Assembly (NCBI GenBank): GCA_016192345.1
Contig: JACPUH010000012.1
Coordinates: 5,342 to 69,341, forward strand
DNA: 64,000 nt
Reading direction: 5' to 3'
Source of the DNA: Ignavibacteriales bacterium
GTDB taxonomy: Bacteria; Bacteroidota; Ignavibacteria; UBA10030
Shown: piece by piece, positions 38,745 through 53,409 of the stretch
Position numbering within the stretch: the stretch's first letter is position 1
Layout of the letters: every line of letters begins with the position of its first letter
Notes under the pieces: model-generated
The model's input: the letters and a program-made list of their open reading frames with translations, nothing else
Database searches by the model: none
What the model was told of the DNA's origin: nothing
Program-made: the position numbers and the translations under genes

Positions 38745-39183
38745 GGGAGAGTTTTTCAGTGTTTTATTGAGATGCCCTAACAGGAGTACTCCGAAATTTC
38801 AAAAATGGGAAAACAACGAGAGGATCTTGGAAGCGCTTCCATAATTTACCAGTTAATTTCCATTTGTCAAGGAAAAAAGGGAGAGGAATTCCTTTTTTCT
38901 GGTCAAAGTTGATAATTATCCGGTTAATTTGAGCAATTCTGCGGTTTTTTTCCAGACCAAATTATTGAACGAGATGGTCTTTTCTTGACGGGGTGGATCT
39001 CTTGGGGGATATTCAAATGGAATTCAGCGGGACGGCCGGAATCAGCCTCAAGAAGCGAAGTTTATGATTGTGCGATGGCAAAATATACAGGCGTTCCCCG
39101 CGCTCTGCTCGGGTTCGGATTGCTTCAGGCACCGAAGGGTTTCTTTTAGTCGCCCAACGTTTGCCTCTGTTCATCGCGGGCTG

Positions 39184-39669
39184 TTACTCGGCCTTGACGC
39201 TGATCGACCGTATGTAATCAACCACGTATGCTATCTCCTTCTTGCTCATCCTCCCTCCCCACGATGGCATCAAGGGTGATCGATTAACGCCTCTTCCCCC
39301 CTGGCTCATGGTCTCAGCTACTCTCACATCGCTGAGGGCATTCATATATGCCACATCGGTAAAGTCTCTTGGCTTGGGGTCAAGGTTGAATGCGTTGAAG
39401 CCGTCGCCTTTTCCCTCCTCGCCGTGGCAAACCGAACAATACTTCAGATACAGATGTCTCCCTTGTCGCTGCTCATACGAAAGCAACCGGGACTCGGCAG
39501 CCTCGTCAACCTTCACCGACGTCTGGAGAGTATCTACGGTTTCATCCGCTTGCTGCGGCGTGGCCTCTTTTTCCTTGCAGCTCATCAGCAGCATGACGAA
39601 TGCTACGATAGCGAGAACATGGGTCATCAGATGGTACTCGACGTTATGACAGCTTGCGGGAGTTCTCAT
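39184..39669 (-). CDS. monoheme c-type cytochrome (class I), lipoprotein
   Basis: Single CSVCH heme-binding motif with downstream Met (LMPSWGG). Lipobox LLMSC. Start overlaps the stop of the upstream octaheme cytochrome gene (ATGA). Confidence 0.8.
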   Translation of the reverse strand: MRTPASCHNVEYHLMTHVLAIVAFVMLLMSCKEKEATPQQADETVDTLQTSVKVDEAAESRLLSYEQRQGRHLYLKYCSVCHGEEGKGDGFNAFNLDPKPRDFTDVAYMNALSDVRVAETMSQGGRGVNRSPLMPSWGGRMSKKEIAYVVDYIRSISVKAE

Positions 39670-41609
39670 TTCAAACTCATCAAGAAGACGGTGAGCGCTT
39701 CTGCCTCTTCGTCTGTCAAGTTGTTCTTCGGCTCGATTGTTTCAGGCTTGAATGCCTGCGGGTCCTTCAGCCAATGGAAAATCCAGCCGGGTTTGAGTCG
39801 CGAGCCGGCTTTGTCCAGTGCCGGTCCGACATATCCACCCTTGAGGTTGATCTGATGGCAAGCCTGACATCCGTATTTTTCATAGTACAGTATTTTGCCT
39901 TTGGCCATACTGTCTTGATCGACTCTTACCTCCCGTTCCACACTATCGGCGATGAACACTTTCTCCATGTAGTTGACCATCACCTTGATCTCGGCATCAG
40001 ACACGAACAGATTGGGCATCCGCTCCGGCAGGATAGGACGAAGCGAATATGGAATCTTGAAGTACTTCTCGATCCATTTCCTTTGCGCTTGACTTGCTTC
40101 AAGCGTCAAGTCGGTTGCTACGAGCCGGCCGCGCCCAAACATCGTGTGGCAGCCGAAGCAGGCAAGGTCGTCTACTAACTTCCCAAATTCCCCTTGTGGT
40201 GCGTAGGTGCTTCGCGGTTTTGGCTGGACCTTGAACTGCGCGGGAATTTCCTCCTCCGTACTGCCCAACAGTGCCACGGTGATCGCCTGAGCTTCTTCGT
40301 CTGTGAATTCATAGCTCGGCATCTTCATCGTGGGTGAAAAGACACGCGGACTTTTGACTTTTGTGAAAAGATATGAAGGAAGTGCCTGCTCGATGCTTGA
40401 CTTGCCAAAATCGATTTCATAGAGTTTTTTCGCGCCAATGGAGGTCAGGTCCGGCCCCATCTCTTCTGCCTTCGTCATCCCACCGAGTTCATGGCATCCG
40501 CTGCAGTTGTATTTCTTGAAGAGCGCACGACCTTTTTCGAAATAGGATGGGTCGGGAGTATGAGGAGGCCGTTCCTCCATTTCATAATCGACAAACTCAC
40601 TCTGGATAGAGGCAACAACGGCGGCCAGTTCTGTTTCGTTGAACCGATATCTCGGCATCTCGACACCCGGCTGCAATCGCTTTGGATTCTTCATATAACT
40701 ATAGAGCCATGCCGCATTGACTTTGCTGGCGACTTTACCGAGTTCTGTCGCGACGGTACCGCCCCGCCCGTTGATCGGGTGACAGCTGATACAGCGTGCT
40801 TCGCTCAAACGCGTCGCACCCAGTTCGGCAAGCTTCTCCCGCTGCGGTTCCGTCCCGGAGGTCAAAACCGCCGGAAGCCGATCGAGTGTTGCATCGCGGG
40901 GGAAGGTCTTCAACGTCATCAGGAAATCAGCTAGGATGTTCACCTCATCGTCGGTGAGAAAAAAATTTGGCATCCTCGTCTTCGCAAAATAAGCCTTTGG
41001 GTTTTTCAGCCAGTTGACGAGCCAGGAGCGATTAACCTTTGAGCCGATTCCGTCGAGGCTCGGCGTCCACTGTTTCTCAAACCCTTCCGTTCTGTGACAG
41101 GCTGCACAGTTCGATTCTTCGATGAGCTCTCGACCGAATGTGAGAATCGGGGCGCGCAGAACTTCTTTTTCCTTATGACACTTGCCGCACGACGCCTCCA
41201 TGAATTTGGTGGGGTACATCGGTTTGTCCCAGTATTCGACGTTGCCGACAGATCCCTTGTAGGTCGTCGCCGCGCCCTGACCTTCATGGCACACGGTACA
41301 TCCAAATTCCTCAAAGTCGTGATCGATCCGCGGGTGTGCGCGAAACGGTTGCCGGGCCTGTTGCAGTGCCGGTTCACTGAGACCGAGATGACACGTACCG
41401 CAACGGTCAATCCGGTCCAATCCCCGGACCCACAACTGCTTGATCCCGATCTCTGCGGGCTTCACCCTCCGGGGAAGTTCCGTAATGAGGCCGTTGTACT
41501 CATACTGGTACCATTTCCACTCGCGAAAGAAATCTTTCAACGGAGCAATCGCAAGGACAACGAAGAAAACGACACCGGAGAGTGCGAACGAGAGCCTGAG
41601 TTTAGTCAT
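39666..41609 (-). CDS. membrane-anchored octaheme c-type cytochrome (3 N-terminal hemes plus 5 class-I-like cytochrome c domains)
   Basis: N-terminal TM helix. Eight CxxCH motifs: CGTCH, CTVCH, CGKCH, CAACH, CISCH, CSGCH, CFGCH, CQACH. Repeated downstream RMPNF / EMPRY / KMPSY / RMPNL Met-ligand motifs. Occupies the cyt c1/f position of the bc operon. Confidence 0.85.
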   Translation of the reverse strand: MTKLRLSFALSGVVFFVVLAIAPLKDFFREWKWYQYEYNGLITELPRRVKPAEIGIKQLWVRGLDRIDRCGTCHLGLSEPALQQARQPFRAHPRIDHDFEEFGCTVCHEGQGAATTYKGSVGNVEYWDKPMYPTKFMEASCGKCHKEKEVLRAPILTFGRELIEESNCAACHRTEGFEKQWTPSLDGIGSKVNRSWLVNWLKNPKAYFAKTRMPNFFLTDDEVNILADFLMTLKTFPRDATLDRLPAVLTSGTEPQREKLAELGATRLSEARCISCHPINGRGGTVATELGKVASKVNAAWLYSYMKNPKRLQPGVEMPRYRFNETELAAVVASIQSEFVDYEMEERPPHTPDPSYFEKGRALFKKYNCSGCHELGGMTKAEEMGPDLTSIGAKKLYEIDFGKSSIEQALPSYLFTKVKSPRVFSPTMKMPSYEFTDEEAQAITVALLGSTEEEIPAQFKVQPKPRSTYAPQGEFGKLVDDLACFGCHTMFGRGRLVATDLTLEASQAQRKWIEKYFKIPYSLRPILPERMPNLFVSDAEIKVMVNYMEKVFIADSVEREVRVDQDSMAKGKILYYEKYGCQACHQINLKGGYVGPALDKAGSRLKPGWIFHWLKDPQAFKPETIEPKNNLTDEEAEALTVFLMSLK

Positions 41610-41612
41610 GAG

Positions 41613-42311
41613 TCAATAGATTCCTTCCCACGGCCATGTCCAGCCCCATTCCGGGCCGCGGAACAACGTGCCGATCGCAGTCAGAACCACCACGACCATC
41701 ACGAACCAGGTCATGACCCACCACGAAAGCGGCCGGTGACCAAGCCAGGCAATGAAACCATGCTCTCGTTTGATGAAATAGGGAGTGAGCATGAATCCTG
41801 TCATGATGAGTGTCGGCATGACCATTGCATAGACCTTGAAAAGAAGGAGGACGAGCGAAACAATCCCAACCGCGACGACAAGCGTCAGGAACGTCTCCCG
41901 CCGATGTTCTTTCCACAGGCCTTCGCGTTTGATGTTGATCTTAAAATAGGGGATGACGATCAGCGCCATGACAGCTAAGGCCGGGAGGATGACGCCGCCC
42001 ACAACCGGTGGAAAGTAGTGGAGCAGTTCTTGCAGTCCGAGAAAATACCATGGGGCTTTGGCGGGATTGGGCGTATGCTCGGGGTTGGCAATCCATTCCA
42101 GCGGTGCGTCGATGATGAGCGAAAGAACGGCGAGAAGAATGACCATGACTTCAAAAGCGATGATTTCCTTGACGACCAGGTTCGGGAAGGTCATCACCAT
42201 CTCCGCGTCTTCTTTCCTGACCCTCGCGGCCGTGCGCCCTTTGATGAATGCGATACGCGTCGGCACTTGTTTCGCGTCCCGTGTTTGTTCGACATTGAAA
42301 TCTTTACTCAT
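41613..42311 (-). CDS. cytochrome b6f-type subunit IV (C-terminal half of split cytochrome b)
   Basis: PEHTPNPAKAPWYFLGLQELLHYFP matches the cytochrome b C-terminal domain PEWYFL motif. Multiple TM helices. Confidence 0.8.
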   Translation of the reverse strand: MSKDFNVEQTRDAKQVPTRIAFIKGRTAARVRKEDAEMVMTFPNLVVKEIIAFEVMVILLAVLSLIIDAPLEWIANPEHTPNPAKAPWYFLGLQELLHYFPPVVGGVILPALAVMALIVIPYFKINIKREGLWKEHRRETFLTLVVAVGIVSLVLLLFKVYAMVMPTLIMTGFMLTPYFIKREHGFIAWLGHRPLSWWVMTWFVMVVVVLTAIGTLFRGPEWGWTWPWEGIY

Positions 42312-42322
42312 TCGCCTTTTCC

Positions 42323-42799
42323 CTAGAAGGAGGGGACGTTGAATGCAATCTCTTTCTCTAATAAACCCTGCATGCGATCCATGCGGCTACCAATGACCTT
42401 GACTAAGTTCCCCATCAAGACATGCCCCACATGATGCTTCCTGGCACAGAAGGAAAGCAGCCCTTTTCCGCGAACCTGGATCAACTCGCTCTCTTCATCG
42501 CAGTATGCGGACAAGGTAAACTGGTAGGGCTCGACGAGGGTGGACCAGCCAAAAACATTCCCTGGGATTACTACATCCACAACGATTTCCGTACTTGCGA
42601 GGAGGATAGGAATTGGAACACTGAGGTGCACTTTGCCTGAACGAACAACGTAGAACTGTTCGGCGCTCTCCCCTCTCTTGAAGATCGTAACTCCTTTTTT
42701 GAGCTTCACGATCGTGCAGAGTTCTGAAATTTGCCTGAGTTCCCTCGCCGTCAGTCCGCTGAAAAAGTTTATGCCCCCCAGAAAATGAGTGTCAACCAT
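42323..42799 (-). CDS. stand-alone cyclic-nucleotide-binding (cNMP/Crp-like) domain protein embedded in the bc-complex operon
   Basis: GLTARELRQISELCTIVKLKKGVTIFKRGESAEQFYVVRSGKV is a cNMP-binding beta-barrel signature. No DNA-binding HTH. Start taken at ATG 42799; the track ORF extends upstream. Confidence 0.55.
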   Translation of the reverse strand: MVDTHFLGGINFFSGLTARELRQISELCTIVKLKKGVTIFKRGESAEQFYVVRSGKVHLSVPIPILLASTEIVVDVVIPGNVFGWSTLVEPYQFTLSAYCDEESELIQVRGKGLLSFCARKHHVGHVLMGNLVKVIGSRMDRMQGLLEKEIAFNVPSF

Positions 42800-42999
42800 C
42801 GTATTACCCTTTCGGTGCCCGCTCTTGGCAAACGTTCTGGGTATGTTGGGGTATTCCGTCGTCGCGTTGCAGATGGACATTAAGTTTCGCAATGTGGGTT
42901 TTGGGATTTCCCACAAGTTGAGAATGACTTGGCCACTGTGTTTTGTGGCGGGACCCGTTATCGCAATCTGCAATCGACAATTGGTGATTCAGAATCACT

Positions 43000-43710
43000 C
43001 TAGACTCCTCCATCTTTCCTCACACGCCAGAAATGAATGCCCATCAGCATGGTCGCCGCAACGGGCAGGACGAAGCAATGCAGCACGTAGAATCTGACAA
43101 GCGCATTCTCTCCAACAATATTGCCACCGAGCAACAGGAAAGAAATATTGTCCCCCACACCAAACGGAACTGCGCGCGCCATGTTCGTGCCAACCGAAAT
43201 TCCCCAGAACGCTAACTGGTCCCACGGGAGTAAATAACCCGTGTAGCTGAGCAGGATCGTGAATACAAGCAGCACAACGCCGATAACCCAATTGAACTCC
43301 TTCGGAGGCCGGTACGAACCAGTGTAGAATACCCGCAGCATGTGCAGGAACACCACCGCCACCATCGCATGGGCAGCCCAGCGGTGCATGTTCCGAAGGA
43401 ATTGTCCCGACGAGACGACATACTGCAAGTCCTTCATATCCCAATAGGCCTGAGGTACCGAAGGGCGATAGTACAACATGAGCAGTGCCCCGGTGACTGT
43501 CAGGACAATGAACAAGCCGAAGGAAAGTCCGCCAAGTCCCCACGTGTAGCTGAATTTGACGGAGCGCTTCCGGACTTTGGTGGGATGGATATGGAGGAAA
43601 AAGTTATAAAAGATCGCTTCTGCCCTTGTCCGGTTGGATTCGGGCAGCCCGTGACGAAACATCGAGCGCCATACTTGTGATGCGAACAATCGTTGCCAGA
43701 GGGATTTCAT
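43000..43710 (-). CDS. cytochrome b6 (N-terminal half of split cytochrome b)
   Basis: Four-helix heme-b domain with conserved His residues ([19 protein letters not shown]; VLHCF). PWDQLAFW motif. Track start is TTG; ATG at 43710. Confidence 0.85.
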
Positions 43711-43712
43711 TC

Positions 43713-44069
43713 TCAATCTCCGAACGCTGGTTCATGCTTTTCAAATCCGACGTGCGCTTCTTCCACAGCATCGATCACCAGGGGAAAATATCGGTCGAGA
43801 CCGCAGTCCAGCCGCGATCGCGTTGAGCATCTTCCATCCGGCGTTTGATGCCGGCACGCGGCACAAACATTCCGGCGAAGGGAGTCGACATACGGCTCAA
43901 TCCTGGGATCATGCACGGAAAGAATGGCTTGGACGATTCTCGGGAAATGAGCCTTCAATCCGCACTCTTCTTCGCCACTCAAGCGGCAGTGACCATGACG
44001 ATCGCTATCCACACAGTGGGCACAGACTCTGGACTGAACGGCATGCCAATACAGTTTGAAGATTTCCAT
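43713..44069 (-). CDS. small cysteine-rich protein of unknown function within the Rieske/cyt b operon
   Basis: 118 aa from ATG 44069, preceded by GGAGG SD. Two CxxC-x7/8-C motifs ([13 protein letters not shown]; [13 protein letters not shown]) plus two further Cys. No recognisable family. Confidence 0.45.
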
Positions 44070-44082
44070 GGTGAGTTCCTCC

Positions 44083-44574
44083 TTAGACTTTGAGAATGAC
44101 TTCCTCCCCAACCATCACCCCTTTGTCCACGACTAACTGTCCTTGCTCGTCAAGCGTCATGGCAAACCGCGGCAGTGGACGCGGCGCGGGGCCTTCGAGC
44201 ACGTTTCCCTCTTTGTCAAATTTGCTCCCATGGCAGGGACACGCAATAATCTCTTCTTCCGATTTCCAGTTCGTGATGCAACCGAGATGCGTGCAGACGG
44301 CGGACACTGCAGAGAAGTACCCTTCCTTGGCGCGAACGATAAAAACCTTCTGCTCTTTGTTGAGCGTGACACTCTCCGGCGGAAAATTCTCCGTCGGCCC
44401 GGCCCTGAATTTCAGCGGCGGCTCGCGCAACACGTTGGGTGAAAGAAATTGCCCCGTCAACACCGCGCTGCCGGCAGCGACGATTCCGATTGCGCCCCCC
44501 CCGATCGTCTCGAGAAAATAACGGCGGGTGAGGATTGAGCCTTCCGATTGCTCTTTCAGCGAATCTTCAGCCAT
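44083..44574 (-). CDS. Rieske [2Fe-2S] iron-sulfur protein, Tat-exported
   Basis: Twin-arginine signal RRYFLETIGG. Cluster-binding boxes CTHLGC and CPCHGS. AAGGAG SD upstream. Confidence 0.9.
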   Translation of the reverse strand: MAEDSLKEQSEGSILTRRYFLETIGGGAIGIVAAGSAVLTGQFLSPNVLREPPLKFRAGPTENFPPESVTLNKEQKVFIVRAKEGYFSAVSAVCTHLGCITNWKSEEEIIACPCHGSKFDKEGNVLEGPAPRPLPRFAMTLDEQGQLVVDKGVMVGEEVILKV

Positions 44575-44588
44575 ACGTCAACCGCTCC

Positions 44589-46472
44589 TTAGACCGGGAC
44601 TGTTTCAGACACAGCGTACGCTTCCATGGTAATGCATCCGACCGGGCATCGCATCGCACACAGACCGCATCGGATACAGCGATCTTCATCTTTGATCATC
44701 ACGGAGCCGACGAGCTCCCCGGACTGCCCCTTCACCACGATGCGGTACTCGCTTTCAAGTTCGGCGAGCACAGTCCCTTCCGCTTCGATTCGAGTGAGCA
44801 CGACAAGATCGATGCAATTTTCGGGACAGATATCGACACAACCCCCGCAGAGGATGCATTCCGTCCCGGTTTCTTCACCCTCCGGTTCGAAGATCGTGTT
44901 TACCCAACAATGCAGGCAGCGCGAAGCCTCTTCGATCGCCTGCTCCTCCGTATACCCCAACTCAATCTGGGACACGCCGATGCGCCTGTCGATCGGCAGT
45001 ACAGGGATGGGAACCCTTTGGGTTTTCTCATATCCCCAACTGCGTTTATACTTCTTCGTATCGTACACGATAATCTCGGCTTCACGTTCGCTCAGAACGA
45101 GTTCGACCCCTTCGATCTTGTCCCTGGTGCAATAGTGGTGGATGGATCGTGCGGCTTTCTTGCCGTTCGCGACGGCATCGATTGCGTTCCGCGGACCGAA
45201 AGAGACATCCCCTCCGGCGAAGACACCCGGCGCGGTTGTGGCAAGAGTGGCAGGATCGACTTTGATGGTATTGCGTGGAGTAATCTCAATGCCGTCCCCG
45301 GGGTGAATCCACGAGAGATCGGATGTTTGACCGATGGCCATGATGACCGTGTCCGCATCCATGATCTTCTCAGTGTGCGGCGCAAATTTCGGGTTAAAGC
45401 GCCCATGGTCATCAAAGACCGATACGCAATCGACTGTTTCTAATCCCACGACTGCTCCATCTCTTCCGATAATTCTGTTCGGACCCCTCCGCGAGTGAAT
45501 CTCAATCCGTTCCTCTCTCGCCTCGGAAATCTCATCCGCGGAGGCCGGCATCTCTTTCCAATCCTCAAGGCACACCAGATGGACTTCCTTAGCGCCGAAG
45601 CGCACGGCAGACCGGGCCACATCCAACGCTTCCGCAACTTCCGTGACATGGCCGACCTCCACGCGCTCTTGCCGTGCCGCCGTCCGGGCGACATCCAGAG
45701 CCACGTTACCGCCACCGATCACGATGACCTTCTTTCCGAGCTCCACGCGGTATCCGAGATTGACGTTGAGCAGGAAATCCACGGCTCGCAGAACACCGTC
45801 AAGTTCCACGCCCTCGATTTGAAGATCGCGGCTTTTGTGTGCGCCAATCGCGATGAAGAAAGCCTGGAATCCTTGCCGCTGGAGATCCGTAAGGGAGAAA
45901 TCACGACCCACGGCGGCATTGAGTTTGAGTTCCACACCAAGACTGAGAATGGCATTGACCTCAAGCCGTATAAGCTCCCGGGGAAGACGATACTCCGGGA
46001 CGCCAAGGCGCAACATGCCGCCTGCCACCGACTGGGCTTCGAAGACGGTGACTTCGTAGCCGAGCAGGGCAAGATCATGGGCGCAGGAAAGTCCCGCCGG
46101 CCCCGCCCCCAACACAGCCACTTTTATCCGGTTTTTCCTGACTGACTTGCCGAAAACTTCTTTGAGCTTCTCCAAATCGAGCATGCTTTCCACACCGTAC
46201 CGCTCGCAGGCGAATCGTTTGAGCGCGCGGATGGCAATCGGCTGATCGAACTTCCCAAGACGGCACGCTCGCTCGCACGGTGCGGCGCAAATGCGTCCGC
46301 AGATTGATGCAAACGGATTGGGACGGCGGGCGACGTGATAGGCTTCCCGATAACGTCCCTCCTCAATCAGCGCAACATAGCGCCCTGCCTCGGTATGCAC
46401 GGGGCAGGCCGCCATGCAGGGAAAGTTGGAGTCAAGCCACTCAAGGTTTACGAATTTCAGTTGGTCCGGCAT
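44589..46472 (-). CDS. GltD-like (glutamate synthase small-subunit family) NAD(P)H:FAD oxidoreductase with N-terminal Fe-S Cys motifs and C-terminal 2x[4Fe-4S] ferredoxin domain
   Basis: N-terminal CMAACPVH...CGRICAAPCERAC. Two dinucleotide-binding folds (VAVLGAGPAGLSCA; VIVIGGGNVALDVA). C-terminal CILCGGCVDICPENC and CIRCGLCAMRCPVGC. 14 nt upstream of the Rieske gene. Confidence 0.75.
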   Translation of the reverse strand: MPDQLKFVNLEWLDSNFPCMAACPVHTEAGRYVALIEEGRYREAYHVARRPNPFASICGRICAAPCERACRLGKFDQPIAIRALKRFACERYGVESMLDLEKLKEVFGKSVRKNRIKVAVLGAGPAGLSCAHDLALLGYEVTVFEAQSVAGGMLRLGVPEYRLPRELIRLEVNAILSLGVELKLNAAVGRDFSLTDLQRQGFQAFFIAIGAHKSRDLQIEGVELDGVLRAVDFLLNVNLGYRVELGKKVIVIGGGNVALDVARTAARQERVEVGHVTEVAEALDVARSAVRFGAKEVHLVCLEDWKEMPASADEISEAREERIEIHSRRGPNRIIGRDGAVVGLETVDCVSVFDDHGRFNPKFAPHTEKIMDADTVIMAIGQTSDLSWIHPGDGIEITPRNTIKVDPATLATTAPGVFAGGDVSFGPRNAIDAVANGKKAARSIHHYCTRDKIEGVELVLSEREAEIIVYDTKKYKRSWGYEKTQRVPIPVLPIDRRIGVSQIELGYTEEQAIEEASRCLHCWVNTIFEPEGEETGTECILCGGCVDICPENCIDLVVLTRIEAEGTVLAELESEYRIVVKGQSGELVGSVMIKDEDRCIRCGLCAMRCPVGCITMEAYAVSETVPV

Positions 46473-46656
46473 AGGTCAACGATTCTGCTTCTAAATCTTT
46501 TGCCCGCGCACAGAGAGATCCAGAGCGCCACCGACTGCGGCGAACAGCAGGAGCCTCGCGATAAAACAAAGAGCCGTCGTCACCACCGCAGTTTGCCATC
46601 TTGACTCGTTCATTGGTTCCCGGCCCTCGCTCCCCCTGTTCAACCGCATTGGTTGC

Positions 46657-47253
46657 TTACTTCTTAACCTCAAAATTGACAATCACCTCTCCCTTGTCCG
46701 GCACTTCCACCGTGACGGATTCCCCTTTCAGCTTCTCGTGCCAAATCCTCAGCGTGTGTTTTCCCGGCGGGACATCTTTCACGGTGTAGCTCCCGTCCTT
46801 CTCACTGACCGCATAGTAGGGAGTTTCCATCACGAGGATGAAGGCTTCCATTTCAGGATGAACTTTGCACAGCATCACCGACGCACAGCCGGGATCCGTA
46901 AAGGTGAACGACCGCACCTGACCTTTCGGCCAGGTGCCAAGGTTGAATTTCTCGGCACACTTGTCGGGCGTAAAAACGTTGTGCAGGACATCGTCGCTGT
47001 TCAGATAGTCAACGGTGGATCCGACAACAACCGGAAGAATGTGAGGGATAAAAACGAGATTCTTCTGATCCATCGTTGCATGTTCTTTCGGCGGCTGGAA
47101 GGTCTTGCCGGGAATCTTATCGATGAAAATCACTGCATCTCCGCTGTGTTTTACCCCTCTTGCTTTTACCTTGCCCTTGATATCGCCCGCCATCAAACCG
47201 TCACTCCACGTCCATGCCAGGAGTGCTGTCATAACGATGAATAAGGCCCTCAT
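46657..47253 (-). CDS. secreted type-1 (blue) copper protein, amicyanin/pseudoazurin-like cupredoxin, with C-terminal beta-sandwich extension
   Basis: Signal peptide. FIPHILPVVVGSTVDYLNSDDVLHNVFT and CKVHPEM give a His...Cys-x2-His-x2-Met type-1 Cu site, spaced as in amicyanin CTPHPFM. Confidence 0.7.
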   Translation of the reverse strand: MRALFIVMTALLAWTWSDGLMAGDIKGKVKARGVKHSGDAVIFIDKIPGKTFQPPKEHATMDQKNLVFIPHILPVVVGSTVDYLNSDDVLHNVFTPDKCAEKFNLGTWPKGQVRSFTFTDPGCASVMLCKVHPEMEAFILVMETPYYAVSEKDGSYTVKDVPPGKHTLRIWHEKLKGESVTVEVPDKGEVIVNFEVKK

Positions 47254-47410
47254 ACATCACCCTTTCAGTAATTGTGTTTTTTTAAAAGAGAGGAGGCGAG
47301 AAAATCATTCGACAGTGATTGTTCCACCGTCTGTGACTTCCTCAGGCTCCGCTCTCCCATCCTTCATGAAATTCCAGGTACCCTGGTGTCCGGGTGGTTG
47401 CGCATCACGG

Positions 47411-48661
47411 TCATATACCGAAATTGAATTGAAGCGTAAAGGTATCCCGCTTCTTGTTCGCCTCGTCGAGGAATTTTTTGAATTCAAACACCAGCTTGAC
47501 GTTGGCACGCGCCATCACGGTAACGCCGGGGATGAGTGCATTCACCGGTTTCACCAGGTCCGCATCGGTATCCCGGTCCTCCCATTCGTACCGCACGAGG
47601 CCGATCAGCCACGGGTAGAACACATAGTTTCCCTGGGCATAATACACCATGGATGATCTGTCCGCGGTTCCGTCGATCGTTGAATTCATGAGCATCAGCG
47701 CTCCGTTGACGACGAAACGGTTGTACCAAAAATCGACATCCCCGCCAAGCACCGTGAAGTCCTCATCCAACGCGTTCGCCCTCGAGGCGGTGCCCTTATA
47801 GAAGAAGGCTCCGAGCGTCACCGAATTATCGAGATAGAATTCCGACGCCTGACTCTCGGCCCCCTCTGTGCCTCCGATTTCACCGAGCCCTCCGATTTTA
47901 TACGTTGCCTTGCCATAGAGATCTTTTTGAGGATTGATGTCGGTCAATCCCTGGCCGTTCACGATGCCGAGACGATAGGTAAACCCGCCACGATCGCCCG
48001 CGCCATTGGCAGCGCCCCACACTTCGAGTCCGTTATGATCATCGCGGAACCGCCATCCATTCCGACTTCGAAAGCTCGCCATGTTGTAGTGATTCCGTGT
48101 GAGCCGGAGATGCGTGGGTGTTGGATCGGCATGCGCCATCCCCACTCGGATGTGAAAACCGGGGCTGAAATCATACTGTAGGGCGAACGGGAAGGCGATT
48201 TCGGTCTCGTTGGCTTCATTCTCAACCTCGAGCTCCCCGAAGAACGAAAAGTTCTCGCCAATAGTGCCTCCATAGAGAAATTCAAGCTCATGCGGTATTT
48301 CCAGGCTCCACTTCACATTGGCGATGGCTGCATATTCGATTCGACCGATAGCCCAGATACCGATGGGGATCGTGCCGGGAATGTCGGCAGGCCAGATGGC
48401 GTCGGGCCAAACTCTCTTGTAGCCTTCCGATCCTATGCTGACCGGCTCTTCTTTCGTCATTTCAGGGTCCGTACCTCCCGGATAGCGATATCCGTTGTTC
48501 TTGAACGCTTTCCCGAAAGCATTGAGCATGGGAGCGGCATAGTGGCAGGTGCTGCAGCTCGTCTTGTACTTGCGCGAGAACGATGGAATGGCATAGACGT
48601 GCTCCGCAGCGATCGCCATGACCAGAATAATGAGGACTACCGTTGCAACAAGCGTTTTCAT
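47411..48661 (-). CDS. Cyc2-like fused monoheme cytochrome c - outer-membrane beta-barrel porin
   Basis: Signal peptide (VYA cleavage) followed at once by CSTCH heme motif (FSRKYKTSCSTCHYAAPMLNAFG). The remaining ~370 aa show amphipathic beta-strand periodicity and end in an aromatic-rich terminus (FTLQFNFGI). AGGAGG SD upstream. Confidence 0.55.
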   Translation of the reverse strand: MKTLVATVVLIILVMAIAAEHVYAIPSFSRKYKTSCSTCHYAAPMLNAFGKAFKNNGYRYPGGTDPEMTKEEPVSIGSEGYKRVWPDAIWPADIPGTIPIGIWAIGRIEYAAIANVKWSLEIPHELEFLYGGTIGENFSFFGELEVENEANETEIAFPFALQYDFSPGFHIRVGMAHADPTPTHLRLTRNHYNMASFRSRNGWRFRDDHNGLEVWGAANGAGDRGGFTYRLGIVNGQGLTDINPQKDLYGKATYKIGGLGEIGGTEGAESQASEFYLDNSVTLGAFFYKGTASRANALDEDFTVLGGDVDFWYNRFVVNGALMLMNSTIDGTADRSSMVYYAQGNYVFYPWLIGLVRYEWEDRDTDADLVKPVNALIPGVTVMARANVKLVFEFKKFLDEANKKRDTFTLQFNFGI

Positions 48662-48698
48662 ACAGCCTCCTGATGGGTGGTTGAATGACGGTGATACC

Positions 48699-49079
48699 TT
48701 AGGGTTTACCGTTCATGTGAAGACACGTTCTTACAGCATCCCGAAGCTTATTGAGTTCCAAGGGCTTCAGAAGAAAATAATCGGCGCCATACGTCTTCGC
48801 CGCTGCCTCGGTGATACGATCGGGATAACCGGTGATGACGATAACCGGAAGCTTGGGATGAATCGCCTTGACGTGAAGAAGAAGGGTGACACCGGAGTGG
48901 AGCTTCAATCGCACGTCGGTGACAAGGAGATCTACACGATGGCCTTCGAGCTTCTGAAGGGCTTCTTCGGCGCTCGTCACCCCGATCATGCTGCAATTCT
49001 CCCTCCGTAAGAAATCCTCAAATGCAGCAAGAATATTATGGTCGTCGTCTATCACCAGCACGGTCGGTTGACTGGACAT
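48699..49079 (-). CDS. stand-alone response-regulator receiver (CheY-like) protein
   Basis: TVLVIDDDHNIL...VDLLVTDVRL...KLPVIVITGY receiver motifs; no output domain. ATG at 49079 (track start is TTG). Ends 37 nt before the Cyc2-like gene start. Confidence 0.8.
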   Translation of the reverse strand: MSSQPTVLVIDDDHNILAAFEDFLRRENCSMIGVTSAEEALQKLEGHRVDLLVTDVRLKLHSGVTLLLHVKAIHPKLPVIVITGYPDRITEAAAKTYGADYFLLKPLELNKLRDAVRTCLHMNGKP

Positions 49080-49275
49080 CCCTACCCCTCTCGTCAATCC
49101 CCTTCTTTATTCAAGAGGCGTACCACGACGGCATGATAAGGCAAGACTGCGAGATTGAGCCGAATTGGGCGAAATGGTCAAACGGTGCGGGGGAAAAAAC
49201 GAGGAAGTGCCAAGGGGGACTTGGCAGTCTGCAAAGCGGGACTTGTCACCGGGAGATCGGTACAACGAGGCAGGA

Positions 49276-50676
49276 TTAACCCCTGAAGGACTTCGCTTTG
49301 ATATCGTGCTTCGACATCAGTCGCTGAAAATTTTGCCGGGTCATGCGGGAACCCTTGGCGGCAGCGGTCACATTACCGTGGTATTTCCGTAAGAGCTCCG
49401 AGACAAACTGGCGCTCGAACATCTGAAGGAGATTAATTCGGGACTTCCCGAAATTCTCACTCATCATGGGCAGCGAAGGAGATCGGACCGACGTATCAAG
49501 AACTGGTTCCTGCAGTGCGTCGGGAAGAATCACGTCACCTTTTGTTAACATCACGGCGCGTTCAAGAAGGTTTTCGAGTTCACGAACGTTTCCCGGATAA
49601 GGGTACGTTTGGAGAAATGTCATCGCTTCGTCTGAAAAACCTGCGACCGACTTTTTGAGCTGTCTGTTGTATTTCATCAGGAAATAGTTGGCAAGATGGG
49701 AAATATCTTCGTTCCTCTCCCGCAGGGGCGGCAGATTGACCGTGACGACCTTCAACCGGAAAAAGAGATCCTCTCTGAAATTTCCGTTCTTCATCTCTAA
49801 TTCGATATCGTGGTTGGTCGCGCAAACAAATCGCCCCCCAACGCGGATGGCAGTGTTCCCCCCCAGGCGTTCAAACTCACGCTCTTGCAGGACTCTCAAA
49901 AGCTTTTGCTGGAGATGCGGCGAGAGGTTCCCAATCTCATCAAGAAAAATCGTCCCCTCCTGGGCGATTTCGAACTTCCCGAGCTTGCGCTCTCCTGCAC
50001 CTGTAAACGCTCCTTTTTCGTGTCCAAACAGCTCCGATTCGAGTAACGGCTCGGGAAGCGCCGTACAGTCAATGGGAACGAACGGTTGGTGGGCGTTGGG
50101 GCTCGCATTGTGAATCGCCCTCGCAACGAGTTCCTTCCCGGTTCCACTTTCACCGAGAATCAGGATCGAGGTGTGATTCGGAGTTGTCGAAATCGATCCG
50201 ATGAGCTTATACACCTCTTGCATCGGGGCGCTCCTGCCGATCAGTTCGTACCGATCGGCCATGTCCCCATGGTATTGACCATGACGGCCTGCCATGGAAG
50301 ATGTTCTGCCAGTGCTGGCCAATGCCTCGCGAGTGACGGCGCGGATCTTGCCGACATCCAGCGGTTTCGTAAGATATTCGAATGCGCCAAGTTGAATTGC
50401 CTTAATGGCTGTTTGCATCGTACCATAGCCGGTGATGATCACGATGGGCATACGCTCGTCTTGCGTTTTCATCTGTTTCAGCACTTCGAGTCCGTCGACC
50501 TTCGGCATCGTGATGTCCATGAACACCACGCCAGGATGATCCGAGGAGATTTTCTTCAACGCCTCCTGTCCATCCCGCGCGAGGACGGTCTTGTACCCGT
50601 CCTTCCGCAGAACTTCGCGGAATGCAAAGAGAATTTTCGGATCATCGTCCACAACCAGCACTGTTGGTTTCTTCAT
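49276..50676 (-). CDS. sigma-54-dependent transcriptional regulator, NtrC family (receiver + AAA+ + Fis-HTH)
   Basis: Receiver domain. AAA+ sigma54-activator domain with GESGTGKELVARAIH and GAFTGA-like motif. C-terminal HTH. Confidence 0.9.
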   Translation of the reverse strand: MKKPTVLVVDDDPKILFAFREVLRKDGYKTVLARDGQEALKKISSDHPGVVFMDITMPKVDGLEVLKQMKTQDERMPIVIITGYGTMQTAIKAIQLGAFEYLTKPLDVGKIRAVTREALASTGRTSSMAGRHGQYHGDMADRYELIGRSAPMQEVYKLIGSISTTPNHTSILILGESGTGKELVARAIHNASPNAHQPFVPIDCTALPEPLLESELFGHEKGAFTGAGERKLGKFEIAQEGTIFLDEIGNLSPHLQQKLLRVLQEREFERLGGNTAIRVGGRFVCATNHDIELEMKNGNFREDLFFRLKVVTVNLPPLRERNEDISHLANYFLMKYNRQLKKSVAGFSDEAMTFLQTYPYPGNVRELENLLERAVMLTKGDVILPDALQEPVLDTSVRSPSLPMMSENFGKSRINLLQMFERQFVSELLRKYHGNVTAAAKGSRMTRQNFQRLMSKHDIKAKSFRG

Positions 50677-53183
50677 ACTCCCATACCATTGGTGATCGGC
50701 AGGTAGATCTTGAACATCGCACCCCCGGCTTGTGAACGTTTGACGGTCACAATGCCTCCGTGCGCATTCACCGTCTGCTTCACCATCGGTAGACCAAGAC
50801 CCGTCCCGTTCGTCTTTGTCGTAAAGAAAGGATCAAAGATGCGACCGATGATCGTTGTGGGGATCCCCGAACCTGTATCGGTCACCTCGACGAGCGCGCA
50901 TGCCGTGCCTTTCTGAAGAACAATTTCCACACCGGCCCGGCCGTCCTTGTTTTGATTACCATCGTAGAGATGGGTAAACGTGAAATCGTGCAGTGTTTCA
51001 CGAAGGATGATTTTCTTCGTCGCGATGGACACGATTTCTTCCTTCGCACGCGCCGGCTTGCTTTCAATGGCCTGGGCTGCATTGAACAAGATGTTCACAA
51101 CGACTTCCTTGAATCGCTGGGTGTCGAGCGGCAGGTTGGAGAGGGTCGGGTCAAGTGTTTGCTGCACATGGATTCGTTCCTTGTTCAAGTGCGGTTTCAC
51201 GAAGTCGAGGCTGTCGTTGATGATTTTATTCAGATTGGCTGTCTGAAACTGAAGCGGCGAGGGTCTGGCAAAACTTAAGAGATCGGCAACAATCTGCTCC
51301 ATGTGGTAAATTGAGTTGAGTGCGACACGCAGGGATTTCTTGTCGGAACGGCTCAGCTGCTTCGATTCACTGTGAAGCTGTAAGATCATCTTGATGGAGG
51401 TCAGGGAGTTCCGAAATTCATGGGCAATAAGAGCCGACATTTCGCCGGTCGCCATCAGCCGCTCCGTCCGGAGAAGATGCTGTTCGAGCCGCTTTCGCTC
51501 CGTCACGTCGGTGATGATCTCGAGAATGGCATGAAGGTCTCCCTCTTTTTTCAGCGGGATTGCCGCATGCTCGATATAGCGGTCCCCACGACCCGTACCG
51601 GCAATGTGGTCGATGTGGCTCGCTATTCTTCCCGAGGATACTGCGATCCTTGAGACACATTGGTGACAGAACCCGCCTTCGCAAAATATCGTCGCACAAT
51701 CCTTCCCACGGACATTGTCGAGCTGCAACCCCGTGATCGATCCAAAGGCGGCGCTTGCCGTTTGAATGCGGTAGTCTTTGTCCAGGAGAACGAAGGCGCT
51801 TGGCACATTGTCGAGAATCGCCTGCAGCTTCGTCTTCTCTTCGGTAAGTTCCTTGGTACGGACTTGCACCAATTCTTCAAGCCTTGTTCGGTGCTGCTGG
51901 ATCTCCTCCTCACGGGCCTCAAGGGACGCAGCCATGAAATTAAACTGCTCTCCGAGTTTCTCAATCTCATCATGGGTCTCAACGTTCAGCCGGTGGTGAT
52001 AATTTCCCCGGGCAATCGTTTCCGCCCCTTGCTGCAACGCAGCGATCGGCTTTGTGAACTGTTGCGTTGCAATCAGGCCCAGTCCGATCGCGACGCCGAG
52101 AAAAAGCATGAGAAAGGCGGCAAACATCCATGCAAAGGAAGACGCAGGTCCGAGGACCACATGGTTGGGGACACTTTCAAACACGTAGAACGGCACGGAA
52201 AACGATGTGAAAGATTGATTGGCCGATAGCGCTGCTCCCCCAAAGAGAGGAGCATAGGCGATGATTTCATCGATTCCTTCCGACACAATTCCACTGTTCC
52301 CGGAAAGCACGGAATCCACCACCGCCGCTGGATAATCGTGCTGGAGATTATCGTCTTCCCGCGACGCCAGGAGTTTATTCCATTCTGTTTTCTTTTCACT
52401 ATGGTAGAGGTAATGGCCATCTCCGCTGACGAGAACTGTTTTCCCGTTGAGGCTGAAATGTCTCGGGGTTTCCATGATGAGGAAGAGATCCTTTGCGAAG
52501 ACATTGGCTACGAGCAATCCTGCTCGTTTTCCCGGCACATCGGGTTTCTCACCTTGACGAGCGAGCGGCGTCACAAAACTGATAATAGGGATGCGCTCAT
52601 TGCTCTGGCTCACGAGCTCTGCCGCCGTGAAGGCTAGTGCATTGGGCTGAAGACCCTCTGCAAGCAGGAAATAAAACGACTCTCGTCCCGCCCGGAGTTC
52701 TTGAGCCGGGACAACCCGATAGCGCTGCATGGAGTCGGGTGCGTCCGTGCTCTCACCACGGATCACTTCATCCCCTGTTTCACTGATAATGCGGAGCTGA
52801 TAATAAATCCCCTTTGTCCGTAACCACGCCAGAAGCTCGTCATTCAATCGCCCGGACACACGATCACCCTGGCGCAAGCTGGAAGAGCTCAAAGCTTGCA
52901 CATACCCCTGAAGCGATGGGGAATTCTTCAACAACCGGAGGTCACTCTCGACATTGGTAAGAAAATTTGCGGTCTTCTCGCGTATGGTACGAACGTCGTG
53001 CGAGAGGTTTTCGTACGCAATCTCCTTCATCATGCTGACGTTTGAGAAAATGCCGTGAAGGCCAAGCACGACAACGGGGATAATGGAAAGACCGGCAAAC
53101 GCGATAATGAGCTTGCTGCGGATGGAAAGCCAGGGGAATATGCTGTTGAGGTTGATCAAGGAGTGCGCCCTACGGTCACTCAT
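50673..53183 (-). CDS. sensor histidine kinase (periplasmic sensor domain, HAMP, PAS, HisKA, HATPase)
   Basis: TM - ~300-aa periplasmic domain - TM. H-box EMSALIAHEFRNSL. ATPase G-boxes (DTGSGIP, GTGLGL). Stop overlaps the NtrC start. ATG at 53183 (track start is GTG). Confidence 0.85.
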   Translation of the reverse strand: MSDRRAHSLINLNSIFPWLSIRSKLIIAFAGLSIIPVVVLGLHGIFSNVSMMKEIAYENLSHDVRTIREKTANFLTNVESDLRLLKNSPSLQGYVQALSSSSLRQGDRVSGRLNDELLAWLRTKGIYYQLRIISETGDEVIRGESTDAPDSMQRYRVVPAQELRAGRESFYFLLAEGLQPNALAFTAAELVSQSNERIPIISFVTPLARQGEKPDVPGKRAGLLVANVFAKDLFLIMETPRHFSLNGKTVLVSGDGHYLYHSEKKTEWNKLLASREDDNLQHDYPAAVVDSVLSGNSGIVSEGIDEIIAYAPLFGGAALSANQSFTSFSVPFYVFESVPNHVVLGPASSFAWMFAAFLMLFLGVAIGLGLIATQQFTKPIAALQQGAETIARGNYHHRLNVETHDEIEKLGEQFNFMAASLEAREEEIQQHRTRLEELVQVRTKELTEEKTKLQAILDNVPSAFVLLDKDYRIQTASAAFGSITGLQLDNVRGKDCATIFCEGGFCHQCVSRIAVSSGRIASHIDHIAGTGRGDRYIEHAAIPLKKEGDLHAILEIITDVTERKRLEQHLLRTERLMATGEMSALIAHEFRNSLTSIKMILQLHSESKQLSRSDKKSLRVALNSIYHMEQIVADLLSFARPSPLQFQTANLNKIINDSLDFVKPHLNKERIHVQQTLDPTLSNLPLDTQRFKEVVVNILFNAAQAIESKPARAKEEIVSIATKKIILRETLHDFTFTHLYDGNQNKDGRAGVEIVLQKGTACALVEVTDTGSGIPTTIIGRIFDPFFTTKTNGTGLGLPMVKQTVNAHGGIVTVKRSQAGGAMFKIYLPITNGMGV

Positions 53184-53409
53184 GCCGTCACAGAACACAT
53201 CGCTTTCTACAAACGGTATGCCCGACCTCCAAGGTGTGCACTCAAGTGAGCAACCCGCAATCTGGCCCGCACATACGCCCTATAACGATCAGGGTAGGCT
53301 TTACTCCCAGCCAATATAATTCTCGGTTCTGAGAATGGAGGTGAGTGTTCTTCTCAGAAGTGAACATGGCGCGTGTTACAAAATTCGCTCTCCTCCCAAA
53401 AGCGAGGCC

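What the first reader, a model, noticed from the sequence alone, without database searches (positions are those of the whole stretch)
42323..42799. Cyclic-nucleotide-binding domain protein encoded between cyt b6 and subunit IV
Split cytochrome b genes (petB/petD) are almost always adjacent. Here a ~158-aa protein carrying only a cNMP-binding beta-barrel (no HTH, no TM) sits between them. Gaps are ~200 nt upstream and 11 nt downstream. It could be a cNMP-responsive regulatory subunit or a repurposed ligand-binding domain of the complex.
Basis: seen in the sequence. Interest (0 to 1): 0.6.

Follow-up and report, generated by a model that had tools for sequence, protein, structure and literature searches.

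The report
Nucleotide-blind sensor-fold protein in respiratory operon
A small protein with the fold of a cyclic-nucleotide sensor, but lacking the residues that hold the nucleotide, is encoded inside an unusual NAD(P)H-linked Rieske/cytochrome b6 operon; it is an optional companion of that operon in two phyla rather than a core part of the complex.

Summary
A 158-aa ORF (42799..42323, minus strand) lies between cytochrome b6 and a subunit-IV-like gene, 200 nt after one and 11 nt before the other. It matches Pfam cNMP_binding (E 1e-12) and is under purifying selection (dN/dS 0.13-0.33).

The interpretation needs correcting in three ways.

1. The two residues that hold the cyclic phosphate and ribose in known receptors are replaced: Glu by an invariant Trp85, Arg by Phe/Leu94. 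The fold is a CRP/FNR-type sensor barrel plus a long helix, with no DNA-binding domain. GenBank's name "Crp/Fnr transcriptional regulator" is wrong.

2. The position is not special. In relatives the same gene sits between b6 and subunit IV, or between the octahaem and monohaem cytochromes, or at the operon end.

3. It is dispensable. The closest relative (92-94% nt identity) and 12 fully covered species-level operons lack it.

However, all 22 informative contexts, in three divergent clades (Ignavibacteriales and two Marinimicrobia clades), lie in this operon type: flavoprotein, Rieske, b6, subunit IV, multihaem c.

My best reading is an optional cytoplasmic accessory sensor or regulator dedicated to this complex and binding something other than cAMP/cGMP. 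The function is inferred, not shown.

The parts
42323..42799 (-). Stand-alone cNMP-binding-fold protein, 158 aa, identical to GenBank MBI3110283.1. It has a CRP/FNR-type sensor barrel plus a long C-terminal helix and no HTH. The phosphate-binding cassette is altered (Trp85, Phe94). The C-terminal motif NVPSF is conserved.
   Evidence: Pfam PF00027, E 1e-12. AF2 model with pLDDT 81; the top Foldseek hit is 3MDP, followed by CRP/GlxR/DNR sensor domains. Family alignment. Cassette alignment. dN/dS 0.13-0.33. Identity to P0196.
42800..42999 (-). 200-nt non-coding gap between cytochrome b6 and the CNB gene. Only the last ~15 nt (CGAAAGGGTAATACG, a ribosome-binding region) are shared with relatives that carry the gene at other positions.
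   Evidence: There is no Rfam match and no terminator or promoter in the gap itself; the two consensus sites found lie inside the CNB coding sequence. The 69-aa ORF 43013..42804 is not conserved in L002.
42213..43003 (-). Segment with no counterpart in the nearest relative L009: 791 nt here against 187 nt there. It comprises the b6 stop codon, the gap, the CNB gene and roughly the first 33 codons of the subunit-IV gene.
   Evidence: blastn block boundaries and the MAFFT alignment.
43000..43716 (-). Cytochrome b6-type subunit, 238 aa.
   Evidence: PF00033, E 4e-44. Best NCBIfam match is ExtP, 283.9 bits against a cut-off of 290.
41613..42311 (-). Subunit-IV-like membrane protein, 232 aa, with more hydrophobic segments than the three helices of canonical subunit IV.
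   Evidence: PF00032, E 1.4e-7. NCBIfam ExtQ, E 2e-16, below cut-off. Hydropathy gives 4-6 segments.
39666..41609 (-). Membrane-anchored octahaem cytochrome c, 647 aa, with 8 invariant CxxCH motifs.
39184..39669 (-). Monohaem cytochrome c, 161 aa. It is the last gene of the operon here.
43713..44111 (-). Small Cys-rich soluble protein (8 Cys, two CxxC...C...CGL repeats) with no Pfam or NCBIfam family. It is conserved between Rieske and b6 in most relatives. The start is probably the ATG at 44069 (118 aa).
44083..44574 (-). Rieske [2Fe-2S] subunit, 163 aa.
   Evidence: PF00355, E 5e-14.
44589..46472 (-). GltD/NfnB-like FAD and FeS NAD(P)-binding oxidoreductase, 627 aa, with no membrane segment. 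It is the putative cytoplasmic NAD(P) module.
   Evidence: Pyr_redox_2, Fer4_20, Fer4_7. NF009410 'NAD(P)-binding protein', E 1e-131, 439.9 bits against a cut-off of 516. Hydropathy.
46657..48661 (-). Two conserved upstream genes. The 198-aa protein is secreted and has an amicyanin-like CxxHPxM motif plus a CarboxypepD_reg-like domain. The 416-aa protein has a signal peptide, one CxxCH and a beta-barrel-like C-terminus.
48699..53198 (-). Single-domain response regulator (132 aa), sigma-54 activator (466 aa) and sensor kinase (841 aa), syntenic with the operon in relatives.

Best explanation
The ORF encodes a soluble cytoplasmic protein. It consists of a CRP/FNR-type sensor beta-barrel and the long helix that forms the dimer interface in CRP/FNR proteins, with no DNA-binding domain. 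It belongs to a large, uncharacterised subfamily of ~160-aa stand-alone proteins. In that subfamily the cyclic-nucleotide phosphate-binding cassette reads F-G-W-S-x-L...T-L-S-A instead of F-G-E-x-A-L...R-[ST]-A. It therefore most likely does not bind cAMP or cGMP in the canonical way.

The gene is an optional accessory gene dedicated to one kind of operon. That operon encodes a Rieske/cytochrome b6/five-helix-like subunit IV complex with a cytoplasmic NAD(P)-binding flavo-FeS protein and a multihaem cytochrome c. This is the architecture described for the anammox Kustd1480-85 and Kuste4569-74 complexes.

The proposed mechanism is inferred. The protein dimerises, binds a small ligand other than a cyclic nucleotide (or responds to redox state through the invariant Cys100/Cys118 pair), and acts on the cytoplasmic face of the complex. 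The likely partners are the NAD(P) module or the N-terminal tail of subunit IV, and the effect would be to tune activity or assembly.

Its place between b6 and subunit IV is a lineage-specific rearrangement. The operon-end position is shared with Marinimicrobia and is probably the older one.

Shown: fold, altered cassette, purifying selection, operon linkage in three clades, variable position, dispensability. Inferred: dimerisation, ligand, protein partner, regulatory effect.
For: Fold. PF00027 at E 1e-12. AF2 model with pLDDT 81, a beta-barrel and helix 122-154. Foldseek hits are 3MDP (E 1.6e-10, TM 0.74/0.87), then the Mtb CRP, GlxR and DNR sensor domains.

Altered cassette. Trp85 aligns with the Glu, and Leu/Phe94 with the Arg, of PKA RII-alpha-B (FGELAL..PRAASAY) and of CRP. 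Trp85 is invariant in a 35-sequence alignment spanning 27-65% identity.

Linkage. 16 of 16 informative contigs of the narrow family carry the gene inside or at the end of this operon, on the same strand. Four of four contigs of a Marinimicrobia/Fidelibacterota clade (~30% identity) have it after the monohaem c. Two of two contigs of a third clade (35% identity; a member is named Neomarinimicrobiota) have it after the multihaem c.

Real gene. dN/dS is 0.13-0.33, there are 39 invariant columns, and the ribosome-binding region is conserved.

Cytoplasmic. No signal peptide or membrane helix, and the NAD(P) module also lacks them.

Operon architecture. It matches the description of the anammox complexes in PMC12954380.
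Against: The gene is missing from most operons of this type. Twelve species-level loci covered at all three positions lack it, as does the nearest relative L009. The complex therefore works without it, and any role is modulatory or niche-specific.

No physical interaction, ligand or expression datum exists. I could not run a multimer prediction.

In several lineages the gene is preceded by 75-200 nt of non-coding DNA in an otherwise compact operon. That would also suit independent expression of a purely transcriptional or signalling factor.

Four of the five AF2 models had low confidence.
Confidence: 0.5

Rival explanations
1. It is a transcription-level or signalling co-factor rather than a partner of the complex. 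As an HTH-less CRP/FNR-type sensor it would bind a metabolite and then act on a DNA-binding regulator. Candidates are a full-length CRP/FNR protein (by heterodimerising through the long helix) or the sigma-54 activator/kinase pair next to the operon. The effect would be on operon expression.
For: The fold and long helix are those of CRP/FNR sensor modules. A sigma-54 activator, a kinase and a single-domain response regulator are syntenic with the operon in nearly all relatives. The gene often has its own 75-200 nt upstream gap and can move within the operon without harm.
Against: No precedent was found for this subfamily. No shared promoter or operator motif travels with the gene. In L047/L048 and L039 it is packed 21-24 nt behind the preceding structural gene, and here it lies 11 nt before subunit IV, as expected for co-translated partners.
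Confidence: 0.2
2. It is a genuine cAMP/cGMP receptor that makes the complex respond to cyclic nucleotides.
For: It matches Pfam cNMP_binding above the gathering score. An Arg on the long helix (R139), invariant across the wide subfamily, aligns with CRP Arg123. From memory, CRP Arg123 lines the cAMP pocket. Some relatives (L012, L013, L047) carry a second, membrane-anchored protein with a canonical cassette (FGEMALL..PRSATV) at the operon, so cyclic-nucleotide signalling may touch this locus.
Against: Both hallmark cassette residues are replaced by invariant hydrophobic or aromatic residues: Glu to Trp85, Arg to Phe/Leu94. All NCBIfam hits are far below their cut-offs.
Confidence: 0.1
3. It is an assembly or maturation factor. 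It would act transiently as a cytoplasmic chaperone while cofactors are inserted or the NAD(P) module is docked, and would not be part of the mature complex.
For: It is operon-dedicated yet dispensable and patchily distributed, as accessory maturation genes often are. It has two invariant cysteines.
Against: I know of no CNB-fold protein with such a role. The ligand-pocket positions are the most conserved part of the protein, which points to ligand sensing.
Confidence: 0.1
4. It is a decaying remnant of a CRP/FNR regulator that lost its HTH, with no function.
For: It has no DNA-binding domain and is absent from many relatives.
Against: dN/dS is 0.13-0.33, the length is constant at 158 aa, there are 39 invariant columns and the C-terminal motif is conserved. 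The same stand-alone architecture is kept in three clades and in a solved structure, 3MDP.
Confidence: 0.03

Closest known systems
Gmet_1532 of Geobacter metallireducens (PDB 3MDP), a 142-aa stand-alone 'putative cyclic nucleotide-binding protein' from structural genomics
   Same: Best sequence match (E 8e-12; 1e-15 with the profile) and best structural match (Foldseek E 1.6e-10). It has the same stand-alone architecture and the same altered cassette context: FGxSSLxKPYxYTxSA against FGWSTLVEPYQFTLSA.
   Different: It has Val where this family has the invariant Trp. Identity is 26%. I found no published function or ligand. Its genomic context was not examined.
Sensor domains of CRP/FNR-family transcription factors (E. 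coli CRP, M. tuberculosis CRP, C. glutamicum GlxR, P. aeruginosa DNR, NtcA, CooA)
   Same: The same beta-barrel plus long C-helix, with Foldseek TM about 0.7-0.78. The helix Arg139 aligns with CRP Arg123. Several members of this family sense ligands other than cNMP (2-oxoglutarate, haem, NO; from established knowledge), which is a precedent for a repurposed pocket.
   Different: There is no helix-turn-helix domain; the protein ends just after the long helix. The cassette Glu and Arg are absent. It is encoded inside a respiratory operon.
Anammox Rieske/cytochrome b complexes Kustd1480-1485 and Kuste4569-4574 of Kuenenia stuttgartiensis
   Same: The host operon has the same unusual composition: a b6-type cytochrome b, a subunit-IV-like protein with extra helices, a multihaem cytochrome c in place of cytochrome f, and a cytoplasmic NAD(P) oxidoreductase with FAD and FeS clusters. 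PMC12954380 was read.
   Different: No CNB-fold subunit is described for the anammox complexes (0 occurrences of 'cyclic nucleotide' in that paper). The organisms here are Ignavibacteriales and Marinimicrobia. Sequence-level orthology to the Kuenenia proteins was not tested.
Geobacter extHIJKLMNOPQS cluster (ExtO Rieske, ExtP cytochrome b, ExtQ membrane protein, ExtS cytochrome c)
   Same: These are the closest curated NCBIfam models for b6 (ExtP, 283.9 bits, cut-off 290), for subunit IV (ExtQ, E 2e-16) and for part of the octahaem protein (ExtS, 102 bits).
   Different: The ext cluster has neither an NAD(P) oxidoreductase nor a CNB-fold gene (PMC5877670). Two of the three matches are below the family cut-offs.

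Membership tests
Pfam PF00027 cNMP_binding (fold family) | Score above the Pfam gathering threshold over the full domain | tested here: met
   48.3 bits against 27.5, profile positions 2-88 of 89. The fold is confirmed by the AF2 model and Foldseek.
Functional cyclic-nucleotide receptors (PKA-R, CRP, Epac, CNG/MloK1 type) | Phosphate-binding cassette with the conserved Glu (ribose 2'-OH) and Arg (cyclic phosphate): F-G-E-x-A-L ... R-[ST]-A | tested here: not met
   Glu aligns with Trp85, invariant in 35 of 35 sequences. Arg aligns with Phe94 (Leu or Phe in the family).
Functional cyclic-nucleotide receptors | Measured binding of cAMP or cGMP | not testable with these tools
   This needs ITC or DSF on purified protein.
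CRP/FNR family transcription factors (the GenBank name of this protein) | C-terminal helix-turn-helix DNA-binding domain after the dimerisation helix | tested here: not met
   The protein has 158 aa, the model ends with helix 122-154, and there is no HTH Pfam hit. All NCBIfam CRP/FNR models score far below their cut-offs.
CRP/FNR family transcription factors | N-terminal sensor barrel plus long C-helix | tested here: met
   Foldseek matches the sensor domains of Mtb CRP, GlxR and DNR at E about 1e-9 and TM 0.66-0.78.
b6f-type Rieske/cytochrome b complex (host operon) | Split cytochrome b (four-helix b6 plus subunit IV) and a Rieske protein | tested here: met
   PF00033, PF00032 and PF00355 on three separate genes.
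b6f-type Rieske/cytochrome b complex (host operon) | Cytochrome f as the c-type subunit | tested here: not met
   The operon has a 647-aa octahaem cytochrome c with 8 CxxCH motifs and a monohaem c instead.
Anammox-type NAD(P)-linked Rieske/cytochrome b complexes | Operon-encoded cytoplasmic NAD(P) oxidoreductase with FAD and FeS clusters, a multihaem c, and a subunit IV with more than three helices | tested here: met
   GltD-like 627-aa protein with Fer4_20 and Fer4_7 and no TM segment. Octahaem c. Subunit IV with 4-6 hydrophobic segments. The comparison is by architecture only; there was no sequence comparison with the Kuenenia proteins.
Structural subunit of the Rieske/b6 complex | Present wherever the complex is encoded | tested here: not met
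   It is absent from L009 (92-94% nt identity) and from 12 species-level operons covered at all three positions. It is present in 2 of 14 such species loci.
Structural subunit of the Rieske/b6 complex | Co-purifies with the complex | not testable with these tools
   This needs complexome profiling or a pull-down.

The most novel reading that the evidence does not exclude
Trp-type CNB-fold proteins could be a previously unrecognised class of cytoplasmic regulatory subunits specific to NAD(P)-linked Rieske/cytochrome b6 complexes, which may be electron-bifurcating. They would sense a metabolite or redox signal, such as the NAD(P)H/NAD(P)+ state or a 2-oxoacid, and gate electron flow between the quinol site and the NAD(P) module. 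The association is conserved across Ignavibacteriota and Marinimicrobia.
Probability: 0.15. Interest if true: 0.7.

Novelty: new variant of a known kind. Interest (0 to 1): 0.42.

Why it matters
Rieske/cytochrome b complexes that carry an NAD(P) oxidoreductase have been proposed to drive NAD(P)+ reduction by quinol-based electron bifurcation in anammox bacteria (PMC12954380). How such a reaction would be controlled is unknown.

A dedicated, ligand-sensing accessory protein that travels with this operon type in two non-anammox phyla would be a concrete handle on that control. It would also show that the operon type is wider than anammox.

The finding corrects a public annotation, since the protein is not a Crp/Fnr transcription factor. 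It also flags a large Trp-type subfamily of stand-alone CNB-fold proteins whose ligand is probably not a cyclic nucleotide.

If the protein turns out to be only a loosely linked signalling protein, the finding is of modest, local interest.

Tried and rejected
1. Longer start (TTG 42973, 216 aa). Rejected: the extensions in homologues are not conserved, and most homologues and GenBank start at the ATG.

2. A hidden small gene in the 200-nt gap (69-aa ORF 43013..42804). Rejected: the equivalent region of L002 encodes nothing similar, and the apparent similarity to the N-terminal extensions of P0003 and P0011 is nucleotide conservation between close relatives in different frames.

3. A regulatory RNA, terminator or promoter in the gap. 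No Rfam match at E<=1 over 38800-49500. The scan found only one promoter-like and one terminator-like site, both inside the CNB coding sequence and at the shuffle expectation.

4. A promoter or operator motif that moves with the gene. Only the ribosome-binding region GAAAGGnTA is shared across positions, and there is no sigma-54 -24/-12 motif upstream of the gene.

5. A broad-subfamily scan of metagenome contigs with alignment A3. I used the narrower A4 instead.

6. Contexts of the more distant subfamily members P0031 and P0032. Their contigs are under 1 kb and uninformative.

7. Literature. Nothing on Gmet_1532/3MDP and nothing linking CNB-fold genes with Rieske/cytochrome b operons. The Geobacter ext cluster has no such gene.

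8. A hydrophobic stretch at residues 59-83 as a membrane helix. Rejected: it contains Glu71 and Asp75 and is modelled as the beta4-beta5 hairpin of the barrel.

9. An exact look-up of the window protein in the contig index returned nothing, although the identical sequence exists as P0196.

Full report
**1. The observation**

The operon lies on the minus strand. Reading 5' to 3', the genes are:
- a GltD/NfnB-like FAD/FeS NAD(P)-binding oxidoreductase (46472..44589, 627 aa);
- a Rieske protein (44574..44083);
- a small Cys-rich protein with no known family (44111/44069..43713);
- cytochrome b6 (43716..43000);
- the ORF in question (42799..42323, 158 aa);
- a subunit-IV/petD-like membrane protein (42311..41613);
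- a 647-aa cytochrome c with eight CxxCH motifs (41609..39666);
- a monohaem cytochrome c (39669..39184).

The gap upstream of the ORF is exactly 200 nt and the gap downstream is 11 nt. The ORF's only Pfam match is PF00027 cNMP_binding (E 9.8e-13, 48.3 bits, cut-off 27.5), with no HTH. Hydropathy gives no signal peptide or credible membrane helix.

The ATG at 42799 is the start, not the upstream TTG at 42973. Homologues, a conserved GAAAGG ribosome-binding element, and the GenBank call for the identical protein all agree on this. That protein is MBI3110283.1 from an Ignavibacteriales MAG, named 'Crp/Fnr family transcriptional regulator'.

**2. What the protein is**

An AlphaFold2 model (best model pLDDT 81; the other four models are poor) shows an eight-stranded barrel followed by a long helix at residues 122-154. 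Foldseek places it nearest to PDB 3MDP, an uncharacterised 142-aa stand-alone CNB-fold protein from Geobacter metallireducens. The next matches are the sensor domains of CRP-family regulators: Mtb CRP, GlxR, DNR and NtcA. So the protein is a CRP/FNR-type sensor module plus the helix that forms the dimer interface in that family, without the DNA-binding domain. The public name is wrong.

The key point is the ligand pocket. In profile alignments, the phosphate-binding cassette of PKA RII-alpha domain B (FGELALVTNKPRAASAY) lines up with FGWSALVEPYKLTLSAY. The Glu that binds the ribose is replaced by Trp85. The Arg that binds the cyclic phosphate is replaced by Phe94 here (Leu or Phe in the family).

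Trp85 is invariant in a 35-sequence alignment reaching down to 27% identity. A profile search of 1.84 billion representatives returned about 2,000 proteins at E<1e-10. The 30 stand-alone ~160-aa hits I retrieved all carry the Trp. This is an old, distinct subfamily, not a local degeneration.

An invariant Arg139 on the long helix aligns with CRP Arg123. From memory, CRP Arg123 lines the cAMP pocket, so a ligand pocket probably persists. Canonical cAMP/cGMP binding is nevertheless unlikely.

**3. Is it a real, selected gene?**

Yes. Twenty-two cluster representatives at 60-97% identity keep 39 invariant columns. These include Trp85, Cys100, Cys118, Arg139 and a C-terminal NVPSF motif. Pairwise dN/dS is 0.13-0.33.

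**4. Genomic context in relatives**

I looked at every context I could fetch. The narrow family is always in or at the end of this operon, on the same strand, but in three different positions:
- Position A, between b6 and subunit IV: the window, L002, L003, L042, L047, L048.
- Position B, between the octahaem and monohaem cytochromes: L001 (the same contig as L014), L006, L007.
- Position C, after the monohaem cytochrome: L004, L005, L008, L043, L049, and L044/L046, where only the monohaem gene is seen upstream.

Two more distant clades show the same linkage. A Marinimicrobia/Fidelibacterota clade (~30% identity) follows the monohaem c in L029, L050, L051 and L052. A third clade (35% identity; one member is named Neomarinimicrobiota) is the last gene after the multihaem c in L039 and L040. 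That makes 22 informative contexts, all in this operon type.

The petB/petD location is thus one derived arrangement. The operon-end position is shared across phyla and is probably older. The b6/subunit-IV junction also accepts other genes: L034 carries an unrelated ~137-aa membrane protein there.

**5. Is it needed?**

No. A scan of one genome per GTDB species with the octahaem cytochrome returned 30 loci. tblastn with all operon proteins, plus a family HMM run on six-frame ORFs, found the gene in only two of them, L014 and L029.

Twelve loci are covered at all three positions and have none: L010, L015, L017, L018, L019, L020, L022, L026, L027, L031, L032 and L037.

The nearest relative is L009 (Ignavibacteria UBA6688), at 92-94% nucleotide identity across the operon. 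It goes from the b6 stop codon to subunit IV in 88 nt. The aligned blocks break exactly at the b6 stop and resume about 100 nt inside subunit IV. So 791 nt here (window 43003..42213) correspond to 187 unrelated nt there.

On an octahaem tree, carriers and non-carriers are interleaved, which implies repeated loss or exchange.

**6. What the operon is**

By composition it matches the unusual Rieske/cytochrome b complexes of the anammox bacterium Kuenenia (Kustd1480-85, Kuste4569-74). Those have a b6-like cytochrome b, a subunit IV with extra helices, a hexa- or octahaem c in place of cytochrome f, and a cytoplasmic NAD(P) oxidoreductase. They are proposed to couple quinol oxidation to NAD(P)+ reduction (PMC12954380). 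That paper mentions no CNB-fold component.

The closest curated sequence models are the Geobacter ExtP, ExtQ and ExtS proteins. The ext cluster has neither the flavoprotein nor a CNB gene (PMC5877670). I did not compare sequences with the Kuenenia proteins, so the resemblance is architectural.

**7. Mechanism**

What is shown:
- a soluble CRP/FNR-type sensor fold without a DNA-binding domain;
- loss of the canonical cNMP contacts;
- strong purifying selection;
- exclusive linkage to this operon type in three clades;
- variable position and frequent absence.

From this I infer an optional cytoplasmic accessory protein. It would probably be dimeric and would sense a ligand other than cAMP/cGMP, or redox state through Cys100/Cys118. 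[quoted passage not shown]

The main rival is a purely transcriptional or signalling role together with the syntenic sigma-54 two-component system or a full-length CRP/FNR partner (about 0.2). The separate upstream gaps would suit that rival. The tight packing in L047, L048, L039 and here (11 nt to subunit IV) suits a co-translated partner.

A true cNMP receptor (about 0.1), an assembly factor (about 0.1) and a dead remnant (about 0.03) are less likely.

**8. Novelty and score**

The fold and the stand-alone architecture are known (3MDP). The protein's subfamily is uncharacterised. I found no report of a CNB-fold gene tied to Rieske/cytochrome b operons.

I rate it a new variant of a known kind, with interest 0.42. 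It is not trivial, because the cross-phylum linkage to a putative NAD(P)-reducing Rieske/b complex gives a testable lead on how such complexes are controlled.

Noticed in passing
L047:12716-13989; L013:2633-3879; L012:11404-12317: Three relatives carry a gene pair next to or inside the same operon. One gene is a NapC/NrfH-like tetrahaem cytochrome (4 CxxCH). The other is a ~200-aa membrane-anchored protein with a canonical cNMP cassette (FGEMALL..PRSATV). L047 has both this canonical protein and the Trp-type one. The pair is absent from the window.
   Followed up: partly
window 43713-44111 (-): A small soluble Cys-rich protein lies between Rieske and b6. It has 8 Cys in two CxxC...C...CGL..YFP repeats and no Pfam or NCBIfam family. 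It is conserved at this position in most Ignavibacteria-type operons (47-89% identity). It may be an unrecognised metal or FeS subunit on the cytoplasmic side.
   Followed up: partly
window 46657-48661 (-): Two conserved genes lie upstream of the operon. One is a 198-aa secreted protein with an amicyanin-like copper motif (CKVHPEM) fused to a CarboxypepD_reg-like domain. The other is a 416-aa protein with a signal peptide, one CxxCH and a C-terminus that looks like an outer-membrane beta-barrel (ending ...FTLQFNFGI). Together they suggest a periplasm-to-outer-membrane electron route.
   Followed up: partly
L034:5017-5430: In one Ignavibacteriota MAG the b6/subunit-IV junction holds a different gene, a ~137-aa hydrophobic protein unrelated to the CNB family. 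The junction is therefore a recurrent insertion site in this operon family.
   Followed up: partly
L009:7854-8049: The nearest relative has about 195 nt between Rieske and the small Cys-rich gene that have no counterpart in the window, where those two ORFs overlap. The cause (insertion or assembly or masking artefact) was not examined.
   Followed up: no
L002:11264-11854; L047:9478-9917: There are further lineage-specific extras in the operon. L002 has a 196-aa ORF with no Pfam family between subunit IV and the octahaem cytochrome. L047 and L048 have a 440-nt apparently non-coding spacer between the CNB gene and subunit IV.
   Followed up: no
L046:4160-4879: A transposase-like ORF lies upstream of the monohaem-c and CNB gene pair, which here is separated from the rest of the operon. 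This suggests the pair can be moved or the operon disrupted by mobile elements.
   Followed up: no
window 42323-42799 (-): The public record (MBI3110283.1) names this protein 'Crp/Fnr family transcriptional regulator', and JGI names homologues 'CRP-like cAMP-binding protein'. Both names over-reach: there is no HTH and the cAMP contacts are missing.
   Followed up: yes
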